Source: Eledone cirrhosa (taxonomy: Eukaryota). Taken from it: a stretch of DNA of 64,000 bases. The position numbers and the translations under genes were made by a program. Below the pieces are notes generated by a model. The model was given only the letters and a program-made list of their open reading frames with translations. It had not been told where the DNA came from and did not search any database. Each line of letters begins with the position of its first letter. The first letter of the stretch is position 1. Location: the NCBI GenBank assembly GCA_964016885.1, contig OZ024742.1, positions 83,328,001-83,392,000 on the forward strand, read 5' to 3'. Below, piece after piece: positions 13,197 through 64,000 of the stretch.

Positions 13197-13265
<69 letters not shown>

Positions 13266-13333
13266 CAAGGTCTAGCAAATAGAGAAAAAGTTTTTGAATA
13301 AATTTTTTAAAATTCGCTGTACTTACTATATGT

Positions 13334-13413
13334 GCCTTTACCGCGGTTTCATGCCAGAATAAACGGAAAATCTAAGCGGATTTCCATTGAGAAGGGAGCA
13401 ATCTTCAGAAAGC
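13334..13413 (-). ncRNA. Type I hammerhead ribozyme (family C)
   Basis: gcttt CTGAAGA t-tgc...ggaaatcc-gctt-agattttcc...gca-t GAAA ccgcgg TA aaggc. Stem III palindrome ACCGCGGT; GUA site. Confidence 0.85.
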
Positions 13414-13995
13414 TCTTCTCCCTCGGATAATATAAAATTCCCGAGTTCAAATCACAAACTGACGCCATACAAAACCATTCCCAAATGAGAGCGGATGATG
13501 AAAGAAATAATTCTGTCTGGTGCCGTGTGCAAAGACAAAAGGCAGAGTAGATAGATCAATGTCCTACCACTAGAAAAAGCAGCAGTCCAAACGGCCAAAA
13601 TTTTATATCTACCTTAGGGGGAGATCAATAATAATAAAGTATGAATTCCTACGTGTAAAAAATGCATATAGGGAAACAAGTATTATCCAACCGTATGCCA
13701 ATGTGGTTCTATGGTGGGTTAATAAATTAACGAGCCAAAACATATAATATCAGCGACTTTTTTAAAATTTATTTTAAAACCTTTTTTCTATTTGCTAGAA
13801 GATTGCTCCTCTTCTCAATGGAAATCCGCTTGGATTTTCCGTTTATTCGTGAGCATGAAACCGCGATAAAGGCACATATAGTAGGTACAGTGAATTTTTT
13901 AAAATTTATTTTAAAACCTTTTCTCTATTTGCTAGAGCAAATAGAGAAAAGGTTTTAAAATAAATTTTAAAAAATTCGCTGTACTTACTATATGT

Positions 13996-14077
13996 GCCTT
14001 TATCGCGGTTTCATGCTCACGAATAAACGGAAAATCCAAGCGGATTTCCAGTGAAAAGGGAGCAATCTTCAGAAGGC
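13996..14077 (-). ncRNA. Type I hammerhead ribozyme (family C, second copy)
   Basis: gcctt CTGAAGA t-tgctc...gagca-t GAAA ccgcga TA aaggc. A third, 5'-broken copy lies at +13798..13873. Confidence 0.8.
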
Positions 14078-14392
14078 TCTTGTCCCTCGGAGAATATAAA
14101 ATTCCCGAGTTCAAATCACAAACTGACGCCATACAAAACCATTCCCAAATGAGAGCGGATGATGAAAGAAATAATTGTCTGGTGCCTTGTGCAAAGACAG
14201 AAGGCATGGTGCACAGGTCAATGTCCTGCCACTAGAAATAGCAGCAGTCCCAAACTTTTTCTCTATTTGCTAGACCTCGATTTTATATGTTCTGGCTTGT
14301 TAATTTATTAACCCGCCATAGAACCACATTGGCATACGGTTGGATAATACTTGTTTCCCTATATGTATTTTTTACACGTAGAAATTCATACT

Positions 14393-14438
<46 letters not shown>

Positions 14439-15603: not shown

Positions 15604-15664
<61 letters not shown>

Positions 15665-15671
<7 letters not shown>

Positions 15672-16571
15672 CTTATTAAAAAATAATTCAGTGGATAGGA
15701 AATAGCAAAGCGTGGACTGAATTCCTAGCCATTGAGAAAATCACTGCCTCTGCGTCTGTGGCAAATTCAAAAAGAATCAATCACGTGACATCGAGGTCAA
15801 TCAGTGGAAAGTGGTTTGCTAATAAGACAGCGGCCTGCCTACTACCATAGCAGCAGTCATGGCCAATATTGCTCGACAAATAAAGTGATATTTTAGTAAG
15901 TAAGTTAATTTTATAATTGTCTTATTTTACGTCTCTCATATTATTGTTCTGCAACCCCATGCATTGAACCACAATGTTACTAAGACAAAACCTATATATT
16001 TGCTAGCATTGATATGCATCTGTATGTATATATATGTTACTAGATATTAATTATTTATAATTATCTCCAAATTATTTGTCGAGCAATATTGGCCATGACT
16101 GCTGCTATGGTAGTAGGCAGGCCGCTGTCTTATTAGCAAACCACTTTCCACTGATTGACCTCGATGTCACGTGATTGATTCTTTTTGAATTTGCCACAGA
16201 CGCAGAGGCAGTGATTTTCTCAATGGCTAGGAATTCAGTCCACGCTTTGCTATTTCCTATCCACTGAATTATTTTTTAATAGGTTTCCAGAGTCCTCGCT
16301 TTGCCTGGAAACTTCGCTGAGAATAGACTTCCCTGACGACGGAATGTTTCTCCATATCTTCTTCGGAAAATATATTTACTCCATTCCAGAAACTAATTAG
16401 TTGGAAGTAATATTTTAGTAAGTAAGTTAATTTTATAATTTTCTTATTTTACGTCTCTCATATTATTGTTCTGCAACCCCATGCATTGAACCACAATGTT
16501 ACTAAGACAAAACCTATATATTTGCTAGCATTGATATGCATCTGTATGTATATATATGTTACTAGATATTA

Positions 16572-16576
<5 letters not shown>
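15665..16576. mobile_element. Non-coding hammerhead retroelement family A (522-nt monomer): inverted 5' piece plus ~1.3 direct monomers
   Basis: -15665..15883 is the reverse complement of about 16070..16285. +15883..16576 repeats with period 522. Flanked by (TA)n. Confidence 0.9.
16327..16408 (+). ncRNA. Type I hammerhead ribozyme (family A)
   Basis: acttcc CTGACGA c-ggaatg...ttc-ttcg-gaa...cattcc-a GAAA ctaattag TT ggaagt. Stem III palindrome ACTAATTAGT. Confidence 0.9.
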
Positions 16577-16616
<40 letters not shown>

Positions 16617-26943: not shown

Positions 26944-27950
26944 GGATATCTTCTTTCTTCTTTAGTTCTGTAACTCGTGAGGATGTCGGAGGGGGCCCGT
27001 ATTGACATTCGACGTTTCTAGGGTATTTTTTTAAAACCTGGTGTTGCCCATTTCTTCTACAGGACTCAATGCAGCAGATTTATACAAGAGAAAGATAGAG
27101 AATGAGAGAAGGATTAAAAATGAAAAAGATATATAGAGGAAGAATCGATCCCAGTCCTAGACTGGTAATTTTTATCGACCTGAAATGGATGAAAGCAAAG
27201 TTATCCTTGGTATCAAGGATTTACTCTATCTTAATAAGTGATTCGATGGGCTTCTATCTTTTAAATTAATAAAAAATTATATAAACATTTTCTTATCATC
27301 AGCAATGAAATTTGACGATGTACGGCGTTTATATTTATTCAACGGTGACGAAATTAAATGGAATTGATTTGAATGACGGAACGAAATCAAGATATGCAAT
27401 TCAAGTTATCTCGACGTTTGGCTTCTGTTCCGAAACAAAAAGAAACATACTAAAATTCCTAGAAAATTTTAATTTATGGCAATATCGATAAAACTATTAT
27501 TGATTTCTTACTAAGGTACAAGGTCAAATCTTTATAGGAAAAGCTTAATGAGGTTAGCAATTTTTTCTTCATAAATAAAGTAAATTAAGTGAAATTCTTA
27601 CAATCGTAACGAAAATTGGCTCACCTTTTCAGGGGTTGCCTAATAATAAACTCAAAGCTAAGATTATTAATGTACAGTTCACCTCTAATCTCGAATGTCT
27701 AAAACATTTTTACGCTGTTCTCCCAAATGAAAACCTCGTAATTTTTGTAAGTAATGAAATTATAGGAGAGATAATCAAACATTTCCCGTGACTATAATTA
27801 TAAGAATAAGTGACGTTCAAAAAATTCATTTCAGGGTTAGTTTCTTTCTTTGAGGATGGGCGGGGGTGAAATGTGGATGATAAAATTTAGTAGGTGAATT
27901 TACATACAACAAATCTACACACACAGATAAATACACATGTAGCACATATG

Positions 27951-27993
<43 letters not shown>

Positions 27994-28004
27994 ATATATA
28001 TATG

Positions 28005-29692
<1,688 letters not shown>

Positions 29693-31693: not shown

Positions 31694-31724
<31 letters not shown>

Positions 31725-31889
31725 ATTAGTATATCTACCAACATATGTATACAGATGTATACCCATGCTAGCAAATATATATGTTATGTCTTAGTACCTT
31801 TGTGGTTCTATGCAGGGGGATGCAGAACAATTATATGAAAGATGTAAAATAAGAAAATTTTAAAAATTAACCTACATACTAAAATTTTC

Positions 31890-31971
31890 ACTCCAACTAA
31901 TTAGTTTCTGTAAGGGAATAAATATAGTTACGCAACACAACTATAGAGAAGTCCTTACGTCATCAGGGAGT
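31890..31971 (-). ncRNA. Type I hammerhead ribozyme (family B)
   Basis: actcc CTGATGA c-gtaagg...tatagtt/aactata...ccttac-a GAAA ctaattag TT ggagt. Confidence 0.9.
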
Positions 31972-32461
31972 CTATTCTCAGCTAGGTTCCCAGGCAATGC
32001 GCGGACACTAGGAACCCATATAAAAATAATAATTCAGTGGATGGAACAAAGCAAGTGGGGATTAGATTCCAGGGCACTGAAAAAATTCACTTCCTACTTG
32101 GTCAGTGGCAAATTCTAAAGAATCAGTCACGTGACACTGAGGTTAATCAGTGAGGAGTGGGGTGGTATTATGACAAGGGCCTAACTACTACCATGAACCA
32201 TAGCAGTAAATTTCGGCAAGTTTTGCTCAACAAATAATTTGTAGATAAATATAGAGAATTAGTATATCTACCAACATATGTATACAGGTGTATACCCATG
32301 CTAGCAAATATATATGTTATGTCTTAGTACCTTTGTGGTTCTATGCAGGGGGATGCAGAACAATTATATGAAAGACATAAAATAAGAAAATTTTAAAAAT
32401 TAACTTACTAAAATTTACTAAAATGTGTCCGCGCATTGCCTGGGAACCTAGCTGAGAATAG

Positions 32462-32543
32462 ACTCCCTGATGACGTAAGGACTTCTCTATACTTGAGTTG
32501 CGTAACTATATTTATTCCCTTACAGAAACTAATTAGTTTGAGT
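32462..32543 (+). ncRNA. Type I hammerhead ribozyme (family B, inverted copy)
   Basis: Same motif with one stem I mismatch (tgagt). Confidence 0.8.
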
Positions 32544-32591
32544 GAAAATTTTAGTAAGTAAGTTAATTTTTAAATTTTCTTATTTTACGTC

Positions 32592-32635
<44 letters not shown>

Positions 32636-32786: not shown

Positions 32787-33135
32787 CAAACACACACACA
32801 TACATATACACATACACATATACATATACACACACACATAAAAATATACATACATATACATACATACATGTGTACATATATATATATACACATATATATA
32901 CCAAGACTGCTGCTATGGTAGCAGGCAGGCCGCTGTCTTATTAGCAAACCACTTTCCACTGATTGACCTCGATGTCACGTGATTGATTCTTTTTGAATTT
33001 GCCACAGACGCAGAGGCAGTGATTTTCTCAATGGCAAGGAATTCAGTCCACGCTTTGTTATTTCCTATCCACTGAATTATTTTTTAATAAGTTTCCAGAG
33101 TCCTCGCTTTGCCTGGTAACTTAGATGAGAATAGT

Positions 33136-33215
33136 CTTCCCTGACGACGGAATGTTTCCATATGTCTTCTTCGGAAAATATATTTACTCCATTCCAGAAA
33201 CTAATTAGTTGGAAG
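33136..33215 (+). ncRNA. Type I hammerhead ribozyme (family A)
   Basis: cttcc CTGACGA c-ggaatg...cattcc-a GAAA ctaattag TT ggaag. Confidence 0.9.
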
Positions 33216-33657
33216 TGATATTTTAGTAAGTAAGTTAATTTTATAATTTTCTTATTTTACGTCTCTCATATTATTGTTCTGCAACCCCATGCATTGAACC
33301 ACAATGTTACTAAGACAAAACCTATATATTTGCTAGCATTGATATGCATCTGTATGTATATATATGTTACTAGATATTAATTATTTATAATTATCTCCAA
33401 ATTATTTGTCGAGCAATATTGGCCATGACTGCTGCTATGGTAGTAGGCAGGCCGCTGTCTTATTAGCAAACCACTTTCCACTGATTGACCTCGATGTCAC
33501 GTGATTGATTCTTTTTGAATTTGCCACAGACGCAGAGGCAGTGATTTTCTCAATGGCTAGGAATTCAGTCCACGCTTTGCTATTTCCTATCCACTGAATT
33601 ATTTTTTAATAAGTTTCCAGAGTCCTCGCTTTGCCTGGTAACTTAGATGAGAATAGT

Positions 33658-33737
33658 CTTCCCTGACGACGGAATGTTTCCATATGTCTTCTTCGGAAAA
33701 TATATTTACTCCATTCCAGAAACTAATTAGTTGGAAG
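33658..33737 (+). ncRNA. Type I hammerhead ribozyme (family A)
   Basis: Same motif one monomer downstream. Confidence 0.9.
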
Positions 33738-34019
33738 TGATATTTTAGTAAGTAGGTTAATTTTATAATTTTCTTATTTTACGTCTCTCATATTATTGTT
33801 CTGCAACCCCATGCATTGAACCACAATGTTACTAAGACAAAACCTATATATTTGCTAGCATTGATATGCATCTGTATGTATATATATGTTACTAGATATT
33901 AATTCTTTATATATATATATTAGAAAATAGAATAGCTTTCACCATATTTTTGACTAAAGAAATTTTAGCCTGATAGTGGGCATTAGAACCCTCAGATAAA
34001 TGGAAAAAGATGAGTATTG

Positions 34020-35314: not shown

Positions 35315-36340
35315 AGTGGTCGTGGTCATAGTGGTAGTAGAAGTAATACCCCTAGGCGTTATTATTGTTCATTTAGCTTGGGTTTGAATTTATCAATAAA
35401 ATTCTTTTCTTTGCTTTTTCTCTTGATTTCACTTGGGCTGTGTAATTTGTATAATGGGAATATTATAAATATTCCCTGACCACATGTTGCCAAGTGGCCG
35501 CTTAGGGGTATCTGACGGACATTTGGGTCTCTGATTTGTTGACGGTGTACCCGTGCACGTTCCGATAGTGCATTTCCAGTTTCACCGACATATAGTTCTT
35601 CACAATTAGGGCATTTAATGCAGTAAATTAGATTTCTGCTTTTGCAGTTCATATTTGCATTTGGGAATATTTTTCCAGTTTTTGTTTTCATATATTGACC
35701 GGCGTGTATGGATTGACATGTGCCGCATCGATTATCATTGCATTTAGATACAGTGAGTGATTGGTCTTTGTTGTTAAGGTCAAACTTTGCTTTTGTTAGC
35801 AATTGCTTCAAATTTTTTGGCTGTCTTTTACTAAGAGTCAAAGATCGATCTGTGATTAAGCCTTTTAATTCGTTACTTTGAGCAATGATCGGTAGGTTTG
35901 CTTTGGCAGTGTTGAAGATATTCTGGTGACATGGGTTGTGTGTCATTATAAATGGTATGACCAGTTCTTGGTTTCTTCTTCCTTGGGTTGTTCTAAGTTG
36001 TTGTATAGGTATTTTTATAGCCCGCTGTATGCCATTTTCTATAAGTAGAGATGGGTATTTTTGTTTGAGCAAAAATTCTCTTAGTTCTGTTAGGCGTTTG
36101 TACCTGGTATTCGTATCTTCTACAATGGTACAAATTCTTCTGGCTAGGCAGTATGGGATGTTGCGTTTTGTATGAGGTGGATGGCACGACTTAAAATTCA
36201 GATATTGATGGGTGTCTGTGTGTTTATAATATATATCCGTGGTAATGGTGGTGTCGTTTTTGATTATCATTATATCTAGGAATGGTAATTTGGTCCTACT
36301 CATCTCTTTTGTGAATTGGAGAGATGGGTGTAGGTTATAT
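34810..36340 (-). mobile_element. 5'-truncated Penelope-like element: RT thumb, GIY-YIG endonuclease and 3' region
   Basis: Open frame 35362-36340: LPFLDIMI, DIYYKHTDTHQYLNFKSCHPPH, CNDNRCGTC, NLIYCIKCPNCEELYVGETG..RARVH, KFKPKLN. Confidence 0.93.
34934..34972 (-). ncRNA. Minimal type I hammerhead downstream of Penelope ORF
   Basis: tgaac CTGAAGA t-tgc-gaaa-gca-t GAAA gtac TT gttca. GNRA loop, palindrome AGTACT, same strand as ORF 35362-36381. Confidence 0.92.
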
Positions 36341-36867
36341 AATACTACTACACCAAACGACCAGCCCTGTCCATTGTTCAATTCGTCAAATATAGATTAA
36401 AATAGGCACTCCCAAAAATTCTTATTAAGATACAATAAGCCATATACTCATTGTATTCTCATTAAAAACCTTCTATATACTTGTTTACCACAAATTGAAT
36501 TGCCATCTGTCATATACTACCCCCACTCTTCTTCCTTTCTTACAACTATTATAAACTTTTCAATTTTTCTGATTTTTTCCAATGTATCCAATATCTCTGG
36601 AGAAGTGACAACTGATTATACATTTGCTATCGAATACTTGCTAACATTATATGATTACGCAAGCAGCGATACATAGGTATTCCGTCTGTTACAGAAACAT
36701 ATGTCAACACCTAATAAATTCCTTTATAAAAGCACTTTCATTTTATATTCATCTTTTCTACATTTTCTCCGGAATATAATTTATACTCGTTGAGCAAACC
36801 TACACGTGCGCTGTTCATCTCTAACGTGACAATATATTATCCCTACATTATTGATAACTTGAAATTT

Positions 36868-53039: not shown

Positions 53040-53680
53040 GGAAAACCTAGGTACATTCATAAGAACTCTAGCCACCACCCCTCCACCCAGCATTTAAAAA
53101 TCTCAGTAATAACATCAGTAAGAGTGTTTCCACCCTCTCTTCTAGCAAAGCCATATTTGACAGGGCAGCCCCCTACTACAACATAATCCTAAGCAACAGT
53201 GGCTTCTCCACGAGAGTCATTTACTTGTCAGATCACCGCCCTATATCCAGGAAGAAAAAGACTAGACACAAAGCCGTCGTGAAGGTCGCTCCACCATTCA
53301 CACTCAATGTGAAGAACAATCTAGATAGAAAATTCCTAGCTCTCCTAGATTTTCACTCTCCTGTAGGCCATATATACTGACAAATATTCAACCGCCATAT
53401 AGTGATAATAGGCTACTCTTGTTCCAGTAACATCACCAACAAACGCAAAAGCCTTCCACCTTACATATGCTTAAGCAGAAGGTCAGAGGCATGTTCACCG
53501 GATCAACAGCGCAACACTCCATCGGTGATATATTTAACAGAAGTGACCTCTACTAACCAGAACCACAAATCTGAAGCTTGGACTTATCTCGGATTGACTG
53601 AGAGCCGGTTCAAAAGCCGTTTCCTGAATCACGAAACAATCTTGAGACATCCTGACTATGTTGAAAAATAAATCTCATTT
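53040..53680 (+). mobile_element. Decayed Naiad-like Penelope fragment
   Basis: RVSTLSSSKAIFDRAAPYYN, PPFTLNVKNN, IFNRH..GYSC, YLGLTESRFKSRFLNH; homologous to 28620-29200. Confidence 0.85.
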
Positions 53681-62819: not shown

Positions 62820-64000
62820 TTGAAGACTAAAATACAAAGAGGGCTCGATAAGGATAAATATATATCAAATTCTATTAAGGATTCTAATGCCGTGCACGTC
62901 CATTCCGACAAAACTGGCAACCTATATCAAGTGGAGCGCAGTACTTACCACCAACTACTGCATAATGCTGTAACTAAGGATTACCGTAAAACTTAAAACT
63001 AATCGGTGCGTCATTAATGAAATCGACGATGCTGGGTTTAAAATCACCTCTGATTTCAACATCTTGGACCCCATTTCTCCCCACCTTACCCTGAAGGATC
63101 ACAAATCCAATTTTCCGAACAACCCCTCCATTCGGCTTATTAACCCGACGAAGTCCGATTTAGGTAGACTTAGTAAAAGGATTCTTGATAGAATTATACC
63201 TGAAATTAGAAGTTTGGCGCCTATTGCAGTGTGGAACAATTCTTTCGCGGTGATTGATTGGTTCAACGGCATATGCAACAAGTAACATTGCCGTTTTATC
63301 CAATTCGACATCAATAATTACTACTCCTCCATCATTTACCACTTCTCCTTAGAGCTATCAATTTGGCTAAAACACTCACAGTGGTTAAGGATTTCGAAGT
63401 TGATGTCATCCTCAATGCCCGTAAGTCGGTGATTAATTTCGACGACTCTATTTGGATTAAAAAATCTAATAGTACCCTATTCGACGTTAGTATGGGCGCC
63501 AGCGATTCTGCCGAGGTTACTGATTTTATCGGCCTTTTCCTTCTTTTCTCTATCAAGGACGAATTCCCCAACGTGGGCGGTGGTTTGTACCGTGATGATG
63601 GTCTTTTGACTATGACTAAGTGCGGCCACGTGCTTGCGACAGGTTCAGAAAAGAACTCACAGCCTTCTTTAAAGGCTTCAACTTCTCTATACAGGTTGAG
63701 GCCAACCTCTGGGTCGTTAATTACCTCGACGTTATCCTCAATTTAACGACTGGCTTGTATTACCCGTATAGAAAGCCAAATGATACGCTTAATTACATAA
63801 GTAAGCATTCTAACCATCCTGCCAGCATAACCAAGAACCTGGTAAGAAACGTTTCTCTGAGGCTTTCCCGTCTATCTACTAACGAGCATACTTTCAACGA
63901 CCATTCCACATATTACGATGAAGCTCTTGCTCGGAGTGGATTTGTCGATAAGGTAGCATATACAGAGTACGAGAATAGACCTAGAAGAAATAGATCCCGA
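62818..64000 (+). mobile_element. Naiad-like Penelope element RT region (runs off window), after (AAT)n
   Basis: SDKTGNLY, TLKDHKSNF..RLINPTKSDLG, FIQFDINNYY, FDVSMGASDSAEV, GLYRDDGL, YRKPND..HSNHP; stops and frameshifts. Confidence 0.92.

What the first reader, a model, noticed from the sequence alone, without database searches (positions are those of the whole stretch)
15665..16576. Insertion junction maps to the predicted ribozyme cut site
Seen: the family A ribozyme would cut after 16402 (GUU|GGAAG). Exactly one monomer earlier, the direct strand starts at 15883 (aagtgata), about 2 nt after the equivalent cut, and is joined to an inverted segment. In family B the long arm stops at 32424, about 9 nt from the equivalent cut, again followed by an inversion. 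Inference: the reverse-transcribed template had a ribozyme-generated 5' end, where RT ran off and switched template. This would be a fossil of in vivo activity.
Basis: partly seen in the sequence, partly recalled or inferred. Interest (0 to 1): 0.82.

Follow-up and report, generated by a model that had tools for sequence, protein, structure and literature searches.

The report
Ribozyme cut leaves a genomic footprint
Genomic copies of a small repeat with a hammerhead-ribozyme motif end two to three times more often than expected just downstream of the predicted cut site, which likely records ribozyme-cut RNA serving as template for a minority of insertions, probably made by a Penelope-type retrotransposon enzyme.

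Summary
The coordinates hold. The 522-nt unit carries a type I hammerhead (predicted cut 16402|16403); the direct arm starts at +3 and family B's long arm reaches +8.

In 371 arms from elsewhere in the genome, 68 of 451 passes stop at +1..+29 (expected 29). The excess is strongest one or more units upstream of the start site: 30 of 115 (expected 8.6), against 4 of 85 just before the cut. It repeats in family B, weakly in a third family, and not in a 310-nt family.

Limits: ends spread over 28 nt, there is no excess at +1..+5, and 300 of 371 arms read through a cut site.

The inversion is generally not a run-off template switch. Arms start at two fixed sites (+61, +179), one each in 120 of 122 two-arm insertions, as expected for Penelope-type priming from both target strands.

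Best reading (55%): some templates were longer-than-unit RNAs with a ribozyme-cut 5' end, trimmed before joining. A start-site cluster or a stall at the ribozyme is not excluded; no RNA data were found. Earlier scan notes reported the two-arm build, and hints of this bias, in other families of this genome.

The parts
15661..16581 (.). Family A two-arm insertion in (TA)n
15661..15883 (-). Inverted arm: starts at +61 (15661-15671), internal loss of about 167 nt including the ribozyme, then unit positions about 405 to 192
15883..16581 (+). Direct arm, +3 of one unit to +179 of the next; reads through the cut site at 16402|16403
16327..16408 (+). Type I hammerhead motif, GUU triplet, palindromic helix III; predicted cut 16402|16403
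   Evidence: covariation
31720..32424 (-). Family B long arm, 3' end at about +176; 5' end reaches +8 with an 8-nt re-copy; internal hammerhead, predicted cut 31895|31894
32425..32600 (+). Family B short arm, unit position 410 to +62; its hammerhead has T at +1
32901..33911 (+). Family A single arm, position 213 to +179, two hammerheads (predicted cuts 33210|33211 and 33732|33733)

Best explanation
This is a non-coding 522-nt hammerhead repeat inserted into (TA)n as two head-to-head arms with fixed outer ends at +61 and +179, likely copied by a Penelope-type enzyme priming from both cut target strands, and the pile-up of inner ends at +2..+29 likely marks templates whose 5' end was made by the ribozyme. 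Shown: two fixed outer ends, one per arm; short microhomology joins; the pile-up and its bias to later passes; read-through of most cut sites. Inferred: the template in these cases is a longer-than-unit linear RNA, cut one or more units upstream and usually left uncut at the ribozyme next to the start sites; the cDNA (or the RNA end) loses up to 28 nt before the arms are joined. Excess stops are about 6% of first passes and about 19% of later passes; the remaining templates were uncut multimers or circles. The window's +3 end fits this class, but no single junction can be assigned to it with certainty.
For: Pooled A+B: 68 of 451 passes stop at +1..+29, expected 29.3 (p 7e-10); later passes 30 of 115, expected 8.6; -29..-1 only 4 of 85. 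Scan statistic 0 of 5000, best window starts at +2. Left edge +2..+6. Later against first pass 30/115 against 38/336, p 2.6e-4: the sequence is the same on both passes, so sequence or fold alone should not give this. Both arm types show it: second pass 15 of 61 and 12 of 39. Single arms: 3 of 74 first pass, 11 of 38 later, 0 of 27 upstream. Family B alone 19 of 121, expected 7.6. Family C later pass 5 of 15, expected 1.5; 0 of 10 upstream. Microhomology equal inside and outside the window, 1.5 against 1.6 nt. The equally AT-rich bins +30..+58 and 378-406 show no excess. Partner arm never passes the inferred RNA end: 0 of 19, expected 2.7, P 0.05. One copy (L144) reaches +1 twice with a re-copied +1..+14. 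Helix II covaries. Precedent: R2 5' junctions track ribozyme cut sites (PMC3774820). In PAc the shortest active 5' truncation is +20 and the cut lies 26 nt into the ORF, which would fit poor use of proximally cut RNA (PMC11167929; my inference).
Against: No excess at +1..+5 (7 against 4.7); the mode is +11..+20, so trimming has to be assumed, whereas the R2 passages describe deletions of the target rather than of the element (PMC3774820). A second, weaker excess lies inside the ribozyme body (452-480: 42 against 25.1; 22 against 8.8 at 450-493 in B), partly alignment noise, which shows that structure can shape ends. When a +179 arm stops on its first pass, its partner crosses that cut in 11 of 17 pairs. 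Family C overall shows nothing (8 against 7.8). The 310-nt family shows no excess (11 against 10.0 of 60) but a deficit before the cut (2 against 8.8), so part of the edge may be depletion. Families A, B and C all carry GTAAGT 13-20 nt after the cut; the 310-nt family has none in its first 30 nt. In PAc, ribozyme mutants inserted normally in vitro and no RNA-seq reads began at the cut (PMC11167929). The GUU triplet is a weak one (recalled). No autonomous partner was found.
Confidence: 0.55

Rival explanations
1. A dispersed transcription start cluster: an internal promoter starts RNAs at +2..+29 of each unit, and reverse transcription runs off these ends. The ribozyme plays no part.
For: Explains the 28-nt spread and the mode at +11..+20 without trimming. 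Also predicts a template end, so the later-pass bias and the partner bound fit. PLE pLTRs carry putative promoter motifs (PMC3846280, passage).
Against: The left edge falls within 5 nt of the cut, a roughly 2% coincidence for an unrelated site on 522 nt. No excess of G before the ends: 7 of 68 against 38 of 303. L144 stops twice at +1.
Confidence: 0.17
2. A roadblock on uncut RNA: the enzyme stalls at the 3' edge of the folded ribozyme (helix I can extend to about +13) or at a bound factor such as U1 on the GTAAGT motifs at +16 and +20.
For: Mode +11..+20 lies at the foot of the extended helix. Second excess inside the ribozyme body. GTAAGT is present in the three families with a signal and absent from the first 30 nt of the one without. 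PAc uses mostly unprocessed RNA in vitro (PMC11167929).
Against: The protein might unfold only the proximal ribozyme, which keeps this rival alive.
Confidence: 0.17
3. The template is a monomer circle or nicked circle made by ribozyme cleavage, and an abnormal ligation junction or a failed template jump stops the enzyme on later rounds. This still implies cleavage in cells.
For: 300 of 371 arms cross at least one cut site and 73 cross two. Animal retrozymes form abundant circles (PMC7229834, passages).
Against: No recurrent scar at 343 read-through junctions. Completing a circle happens at the same distance for both arm types, yet the stops share a position, not a distance.
Confidence: 0.08
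4. One reading: a single cDNA runs off the cut end and switches template or snaps back, which makes the inverted arm.
For: Snap-back after full-length cDNA is documented for R2 proteins (PMC11371274, passage). In the window's A insertion the inverted arm is contained in the direct arm. 14 of 119 pairs have both ends within 12 nt (9.0 expected, p 0.057).
Against: Inverted arms have their own fixed start: 86 of 88, 34 of 34 and 16 of 16 pairs combine the two start sites. Neither arm is contained in the other in 58 of 119 pairs. 78 of 119 junctions have neither end in the window.
Confidence: 0.03

Closest known systems
Animal non-LTR retrozymes (Cervera and de la Pena 2020, PMC7229834; Li, Clavereau and Pollet 2026, 10.64898/2026.07.22.740005)
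   Same: Non-coding tandem unit with one type I hammerhead per unit, dispersed in thousands of copies, proposed to use PLE machinery.
   Different: Unit of 522 nt is above the 150-450 bp quoted. The passages read do not map genomic 5' ends to the cut site; the preprint says the mechanism remains to be elucidated. Expression and circles are untested here.
Endonuclease-bearing Penelope-like elements, PAc in vitro system (PMC11167929; PMC3846280; PMC8557442; PMC4209133)
   Same: Two internal start sites giving a 'tail', AT-rich target, both strands cut and extended, inverted 5'-truncated arm, hammerhead upstream of the start sites, palindromic helix III.
   Different: No ORF; tail of 118 nt against 30-40; in PAc no in vivo ends were seen at the ribozyme site, whereas here genomic ends pile up behind it. 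No autonomous partner identified.
R2 retrotransposon with HDV-like ribozyme (PMC3774820)
   Same: A ribozyme-made RNA 5' end is read out in genomic 5' junctions joined by microhomology.
   Different: Different ribozyme and enzyme; here only a minority of insertions show it, ends fall up to 28 nt short of the cut, and the join is usually arm to arm.

Membership tests
Type I hammerhead ribozyme | Core CUGANGA and GAAA, NUH triplet | tested here: met
   265 of 314 copies have CTGATGA or CTGACGA; GTT in 304 of 314 (copies were picked with fuzzy versions of these motifs)
Type I hammerhead ribozyme | Helices I, II, III with covariation | tested here: met
   Helix II 97.6% paired against 82.8% shuffled (max 84.6%); pair 2 A-T/G-C/T-A, pair 5 T-A/G-C; helix I of 4 bp or more in 266 of 314 (relatedness not corrected). 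The isolated fold is no more stable than shuffles, z -0.2 to -0.5, and two family B copies did not fold into the motif
Type I hammerhead ribozyme | Self-cleavage at the predicted bond | not testable with these tools
   Needs an in vitro assay; genomic ends are indirect
Animal non-LTR retrozyme | At least two tandem units each with a type I hammerhead, no coding capacity | tested here: met
   32901-33911 holds two motifs; an array of about 11 units on C5; no stop-to-stop frame of 100 aa lies within the elements
Animal non-LTR retrozyme | Unit size about 150-450 bp (descriptive range) | tested here: inconclusive
   522 nt in A, up to about 545 in B: somewhat above the quoted range, which is a description rather than a criterion
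Animal non-LTR retrozyme | Expressed as linear and circular RNA | not testable with these tools
   No RNA holder listed
Penelope-mobilised element | Inverted 5'-truncated arm and two fixed 3' ends (tail) | tested here: met
   +61/+179 pairing in 86 of 88 and 34 of 34 insertions; tail 118 nt
Penelope-mobilised element | Insertion into AT-rich or (TA)n targets | tested here: met
   Nearly all 3' flanks printed are (TA)n
Penelope-mobilised element | Homology to the pLTR of an autonomous PLE | tested here: inconclusive
   One pattern search returned 39 matches, by their printed sequence nearly all internally deleted copies of this family; a GIY-YIG ORF fragment lies at 35362-36396 but was not linked to this family

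The most novel reading that the evidence does not exclude
The hammerhead acts in cells as a position-dependent 5'-end processor for Penelope-type retrotransposition: a cut one unit upstream sets the template's 5' end, as the R2 ribozyme does, while the ribozyme next to the two start sites must stay uncut. Thousands of genomic arms then record cleavage frequency per site, family by family (linear templates in A, B and C; endless ones in the 310-nt family).
Probability: 0.4. Interest if true: 0.72.

Novelty: new member of a known kind. Interest (0 to 1): 0.52.

Why it matters
Why Penelope-like elements and animal retrozymes carry hammerheads is open: the one in vitro system found the ribozyme dispensable and no in vivo ends at the cut (PMC11167929). 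A position-locked excess of genomic 5' ends behind the cut would be indirect evidence that cleaved linear RNA is a real template, and it gives a test that needs only a genome assembly. The strict pairing of the two start sites is genomic support for priming from both target strands. My searches listed no paper whose title or abstract start reports such a mapping; the library lacks most subscription papers.

Tried and rejected
1. BLAST to a linear monomer gave a false spike at +4 and inflated position 479; it came from subfamily divergence at the reference edge and was replaced by a circular multi-reference alignment.
2. The 30 best DNA hits were not used for statistics, because they favour full-length units.
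3. One search used references reversed by the palindrome and was discarded; two chimeric references were removed.
4. The family C anchor covers +1..+25 and is biased; searches replaced it (4 of its loci were reused because they were also listed).
5. Rfam: the 150 listed of 245 matches were miRNA-type models, far below their gathering scores; no hammerhead family was among those shown.
6. No RNA holder listed; contigs of three runs of unknown kind said nothing on RNA ends.
7. No autonomous partner.
8. A systematic stutter test was empty: 0 of 68 window ends, 1 of 303 others, so the B and L144 stutters are anecdotes.
9. No spliced copy: the one +19 join (L149) looks like a microhomology deletion.
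10. Microhomology, AT content and TA-flank ambiguity do not explain the excess.

Full report
Numbering: +1 is the first base after the predicted cut; the reference unit is window 33211-33732 (522 nt). An arm is a run of sense sequence whose 3' end lies at one of the two fixed sites. A pass is one crossing of the cut region; 'later' means more than 400 nt from the arm's 3' end (370 for family C).

1. Observation. The motif at 16327-16408 is a type I hammerhead with a palindromic helix III and GUU|GGAAG. Across 314 copies helix II covaries. The direct arm starts at +3 (15883) and family B's long arm reaches +8 with an 8-nt re-copy. The inverted arm of the A insertion starts at +61 (15661) and carries an internal deletion that removed its ribozyme.

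2. Anatomy. The genome (3.0 Gb) holds 3,060 exact matches to a family A 24-mer and 3,860 to a family B-type 25-mer. Outer ends are fixed at about +61 and +179 and lie in (TA)n. Two-arm insertions are head to head and combine one end of each kind: 86 of 88 in A, 34 of 34 in B, and 16 of 16 in family C, whose ends are +82 and +193. Joins have 0-5 nt of microhomology in 91 of 119 pairs and filler in 28. Neither arm is contained in the other in 58 of 119 pairs (50.8 under permutation), which excludes snap-back as the general route. An arm's own partner is its best match in 21 of 32 pairs. This matches the PLE tail, explained in PAc by two internal start sites with both strands cut and extended (PMC11167929).

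3. Samples. Family A: 180 loci. 58 came from the first 100 of 3,060 matches in genome order; 122 came from two searches for arm ends with a short TA run. I skipped rows of an older subfamily and repeats, left the last 11 places unfetched, and 48 matches were not listed. Family B: 59 loci from the first 100 matches; the last five clusters were not fetched. Arms under 30 nt, under 90% identity, of the old subfamily, with a non-AT flank, or duplicated were dropped: 22 of 292. A second calling with slightly different filters gave 276 A and 95 B arms; the two callings agree (50 and 49 A ends in the window). The window's own copies are not in these samples. A few junctions may be shared by descent (L098 and L099).

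4. Result. Baseline stopping rate is 0.0027 per nt. At +1..+29, 68 of 451 passes stop (expected 29.3); first passes 38 of 336 (19.5), later passes 30 of 115 (8.6); at -29..-1 later passes stop in 4 of 85 (7.2). The best 29-nt window of the circle starts at +2, overall and for later passes (0 of 5000 simulations each); for first passes alone the scan gives 206 of 5000. The left edge is +2..+6. Fine scale: +1..+5 7 against 4.7, +1..+10 21 against 9.5, +11..+20 31 against 10.2, +21..+29 16 against 9.6. The 29-nt bin came from an even grid starting at +1; the 400-nt split was chosen after looking at the data. The later-pass excess is larger in the second A sample (18 ends in 1,134 nt) than in the first (7 in 962 nt).

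5. Replicates and controls. Family B: 19 of 121 (7.6); its first and later passes differ less (13 of 92, 6 of 29), and it has a second excess in the ribozyme body (22 against 8.8). Family C (486 nt, no significant BLAST match to A, 65 loci, 84 arms): nothing overall (8 against 7.8), later passes 5 of 15 (1.5, p 0.02), spread to about +50. The 310-nt family (30 junctions, 60 ends): 11 against 10.0 at +1..+29 and 2 against 8.8 at -29..-1; a by-eye count of the printed rows, three repeated junctions left out, gave 35 of 194 at +1..+30 against 33.3. The method therefore does not create the peak, and the peak is not universal.

6. Is it a template end? For: the later-pass bias at identical sequence; both arm types stop at the same position though at different distances; partners of later-pass stops never pass the inferred end (0 of 19, 2.7 expected, P 0.05); when a +61 arm stops at +1..+32 on its first pass, its partner also ends before that cut in 11 of 15 pairs, against 15 of 42 for slightly longer arms (p 0.017); L144, dropped by the flank filter, reaches +1 twice. 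Against: partners of first-pass +179 stops cross the cut in 11 of 17 pairs; there is no excess at +1..+5; a conserved GTAAGT follows the cut in A, B and C.

7. Mechanism. Shown: fixed starts, pairing, microhomology joins, pile-up, read-through (300 of 371 arms). Inferred: a Penelope-type enzyme primes from both strands of a cut (TA)n; most templates are uncut multimers or circles; a minority end at a ribozyme cut one or more units upstream, and up to 28 nt are lost before joining. Weak cleavage would fit the GUU triplet (recalled) and the short palindromic helix III, which needs a dimer (PMC4209133). I put 55% on the cut end, 17% on a start-site cluster, 17% on a stall, 8% on a circle lesion.

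8. Literature seen. PMC11167929: parts 1-2 of 4 of the main text and passages; its Fig. S2B on RNA-seq ends is a supplement I did not read. 10.64898/2026.07.22.740005: part 1 of 5, the Discussion and passages; bioRxiv supplements are closed and could bear on novelty. PMC3774820: abstract and passages. PMC3846280, PMC4209133, PMC8557442, PMC7229834, PMC11371274: passages only. Other papers: search listings only. The labels 'retrozyme', 'PLE' and 'tail' come from these papers; hammerhead numbering and the U1 reading of GTAAGT are recalled.

9. Verdict. The element is a new member of a known kind. The added value is a quantified, partly replicated genomic footprint at the ribozyme, suggestive of cleavage in cells but not proof. 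Interest 0.52.

Noticed in passing
window 13257-14403: A third hammerhead repeat (family C, 486-nt unit, core CUGAAGA, GUA triplet in most copies) with ends at +82 and +193 and several nested inversions; 204-458 pattern matches in the genome.
   Followed up: partly
window 52182 (-) and 52582 (+); 39737 (-): Further minimal hammerhead motifs, the first two head to head 400 nt apart.
   Followed up: no
window 35362-36396 (-): ORF fragment with a GIY-YIG domain (Pfam E 9.6e-07), Penelope-like by eye; other possible PLE fragments near 27943-29456, 53072-53380 and 62974-63746 had no Pfam hit.
   Followed up: partly
unit +16 and +20 (A, B), +13 (C): A splice-donor-like GTAAGT follows the cut in three families; no spliced copy was seen.
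   Followed up: partly
unit positions 452-493: Second excess of 5' ends inside the ribozyme body, 7 at position 479 next to a UUCG hairpin; some are alignment breaks in a variable loop.
   Followed up: partly
L455-L484 (310-nt family): Deficit of ends in the 29 nt before the cut (2 against 8.8) and a cluster at +35..+40.
   Followed up: no
L143:1210-1524: The segment -14..+11 around the cut is repeated three times between TA runs before the arm proper.
   Followed up: no
L425-L454: 39 matches, nearly all copies of this family with loop II shortened by internal deletions that keep the core.
   Followed up: no
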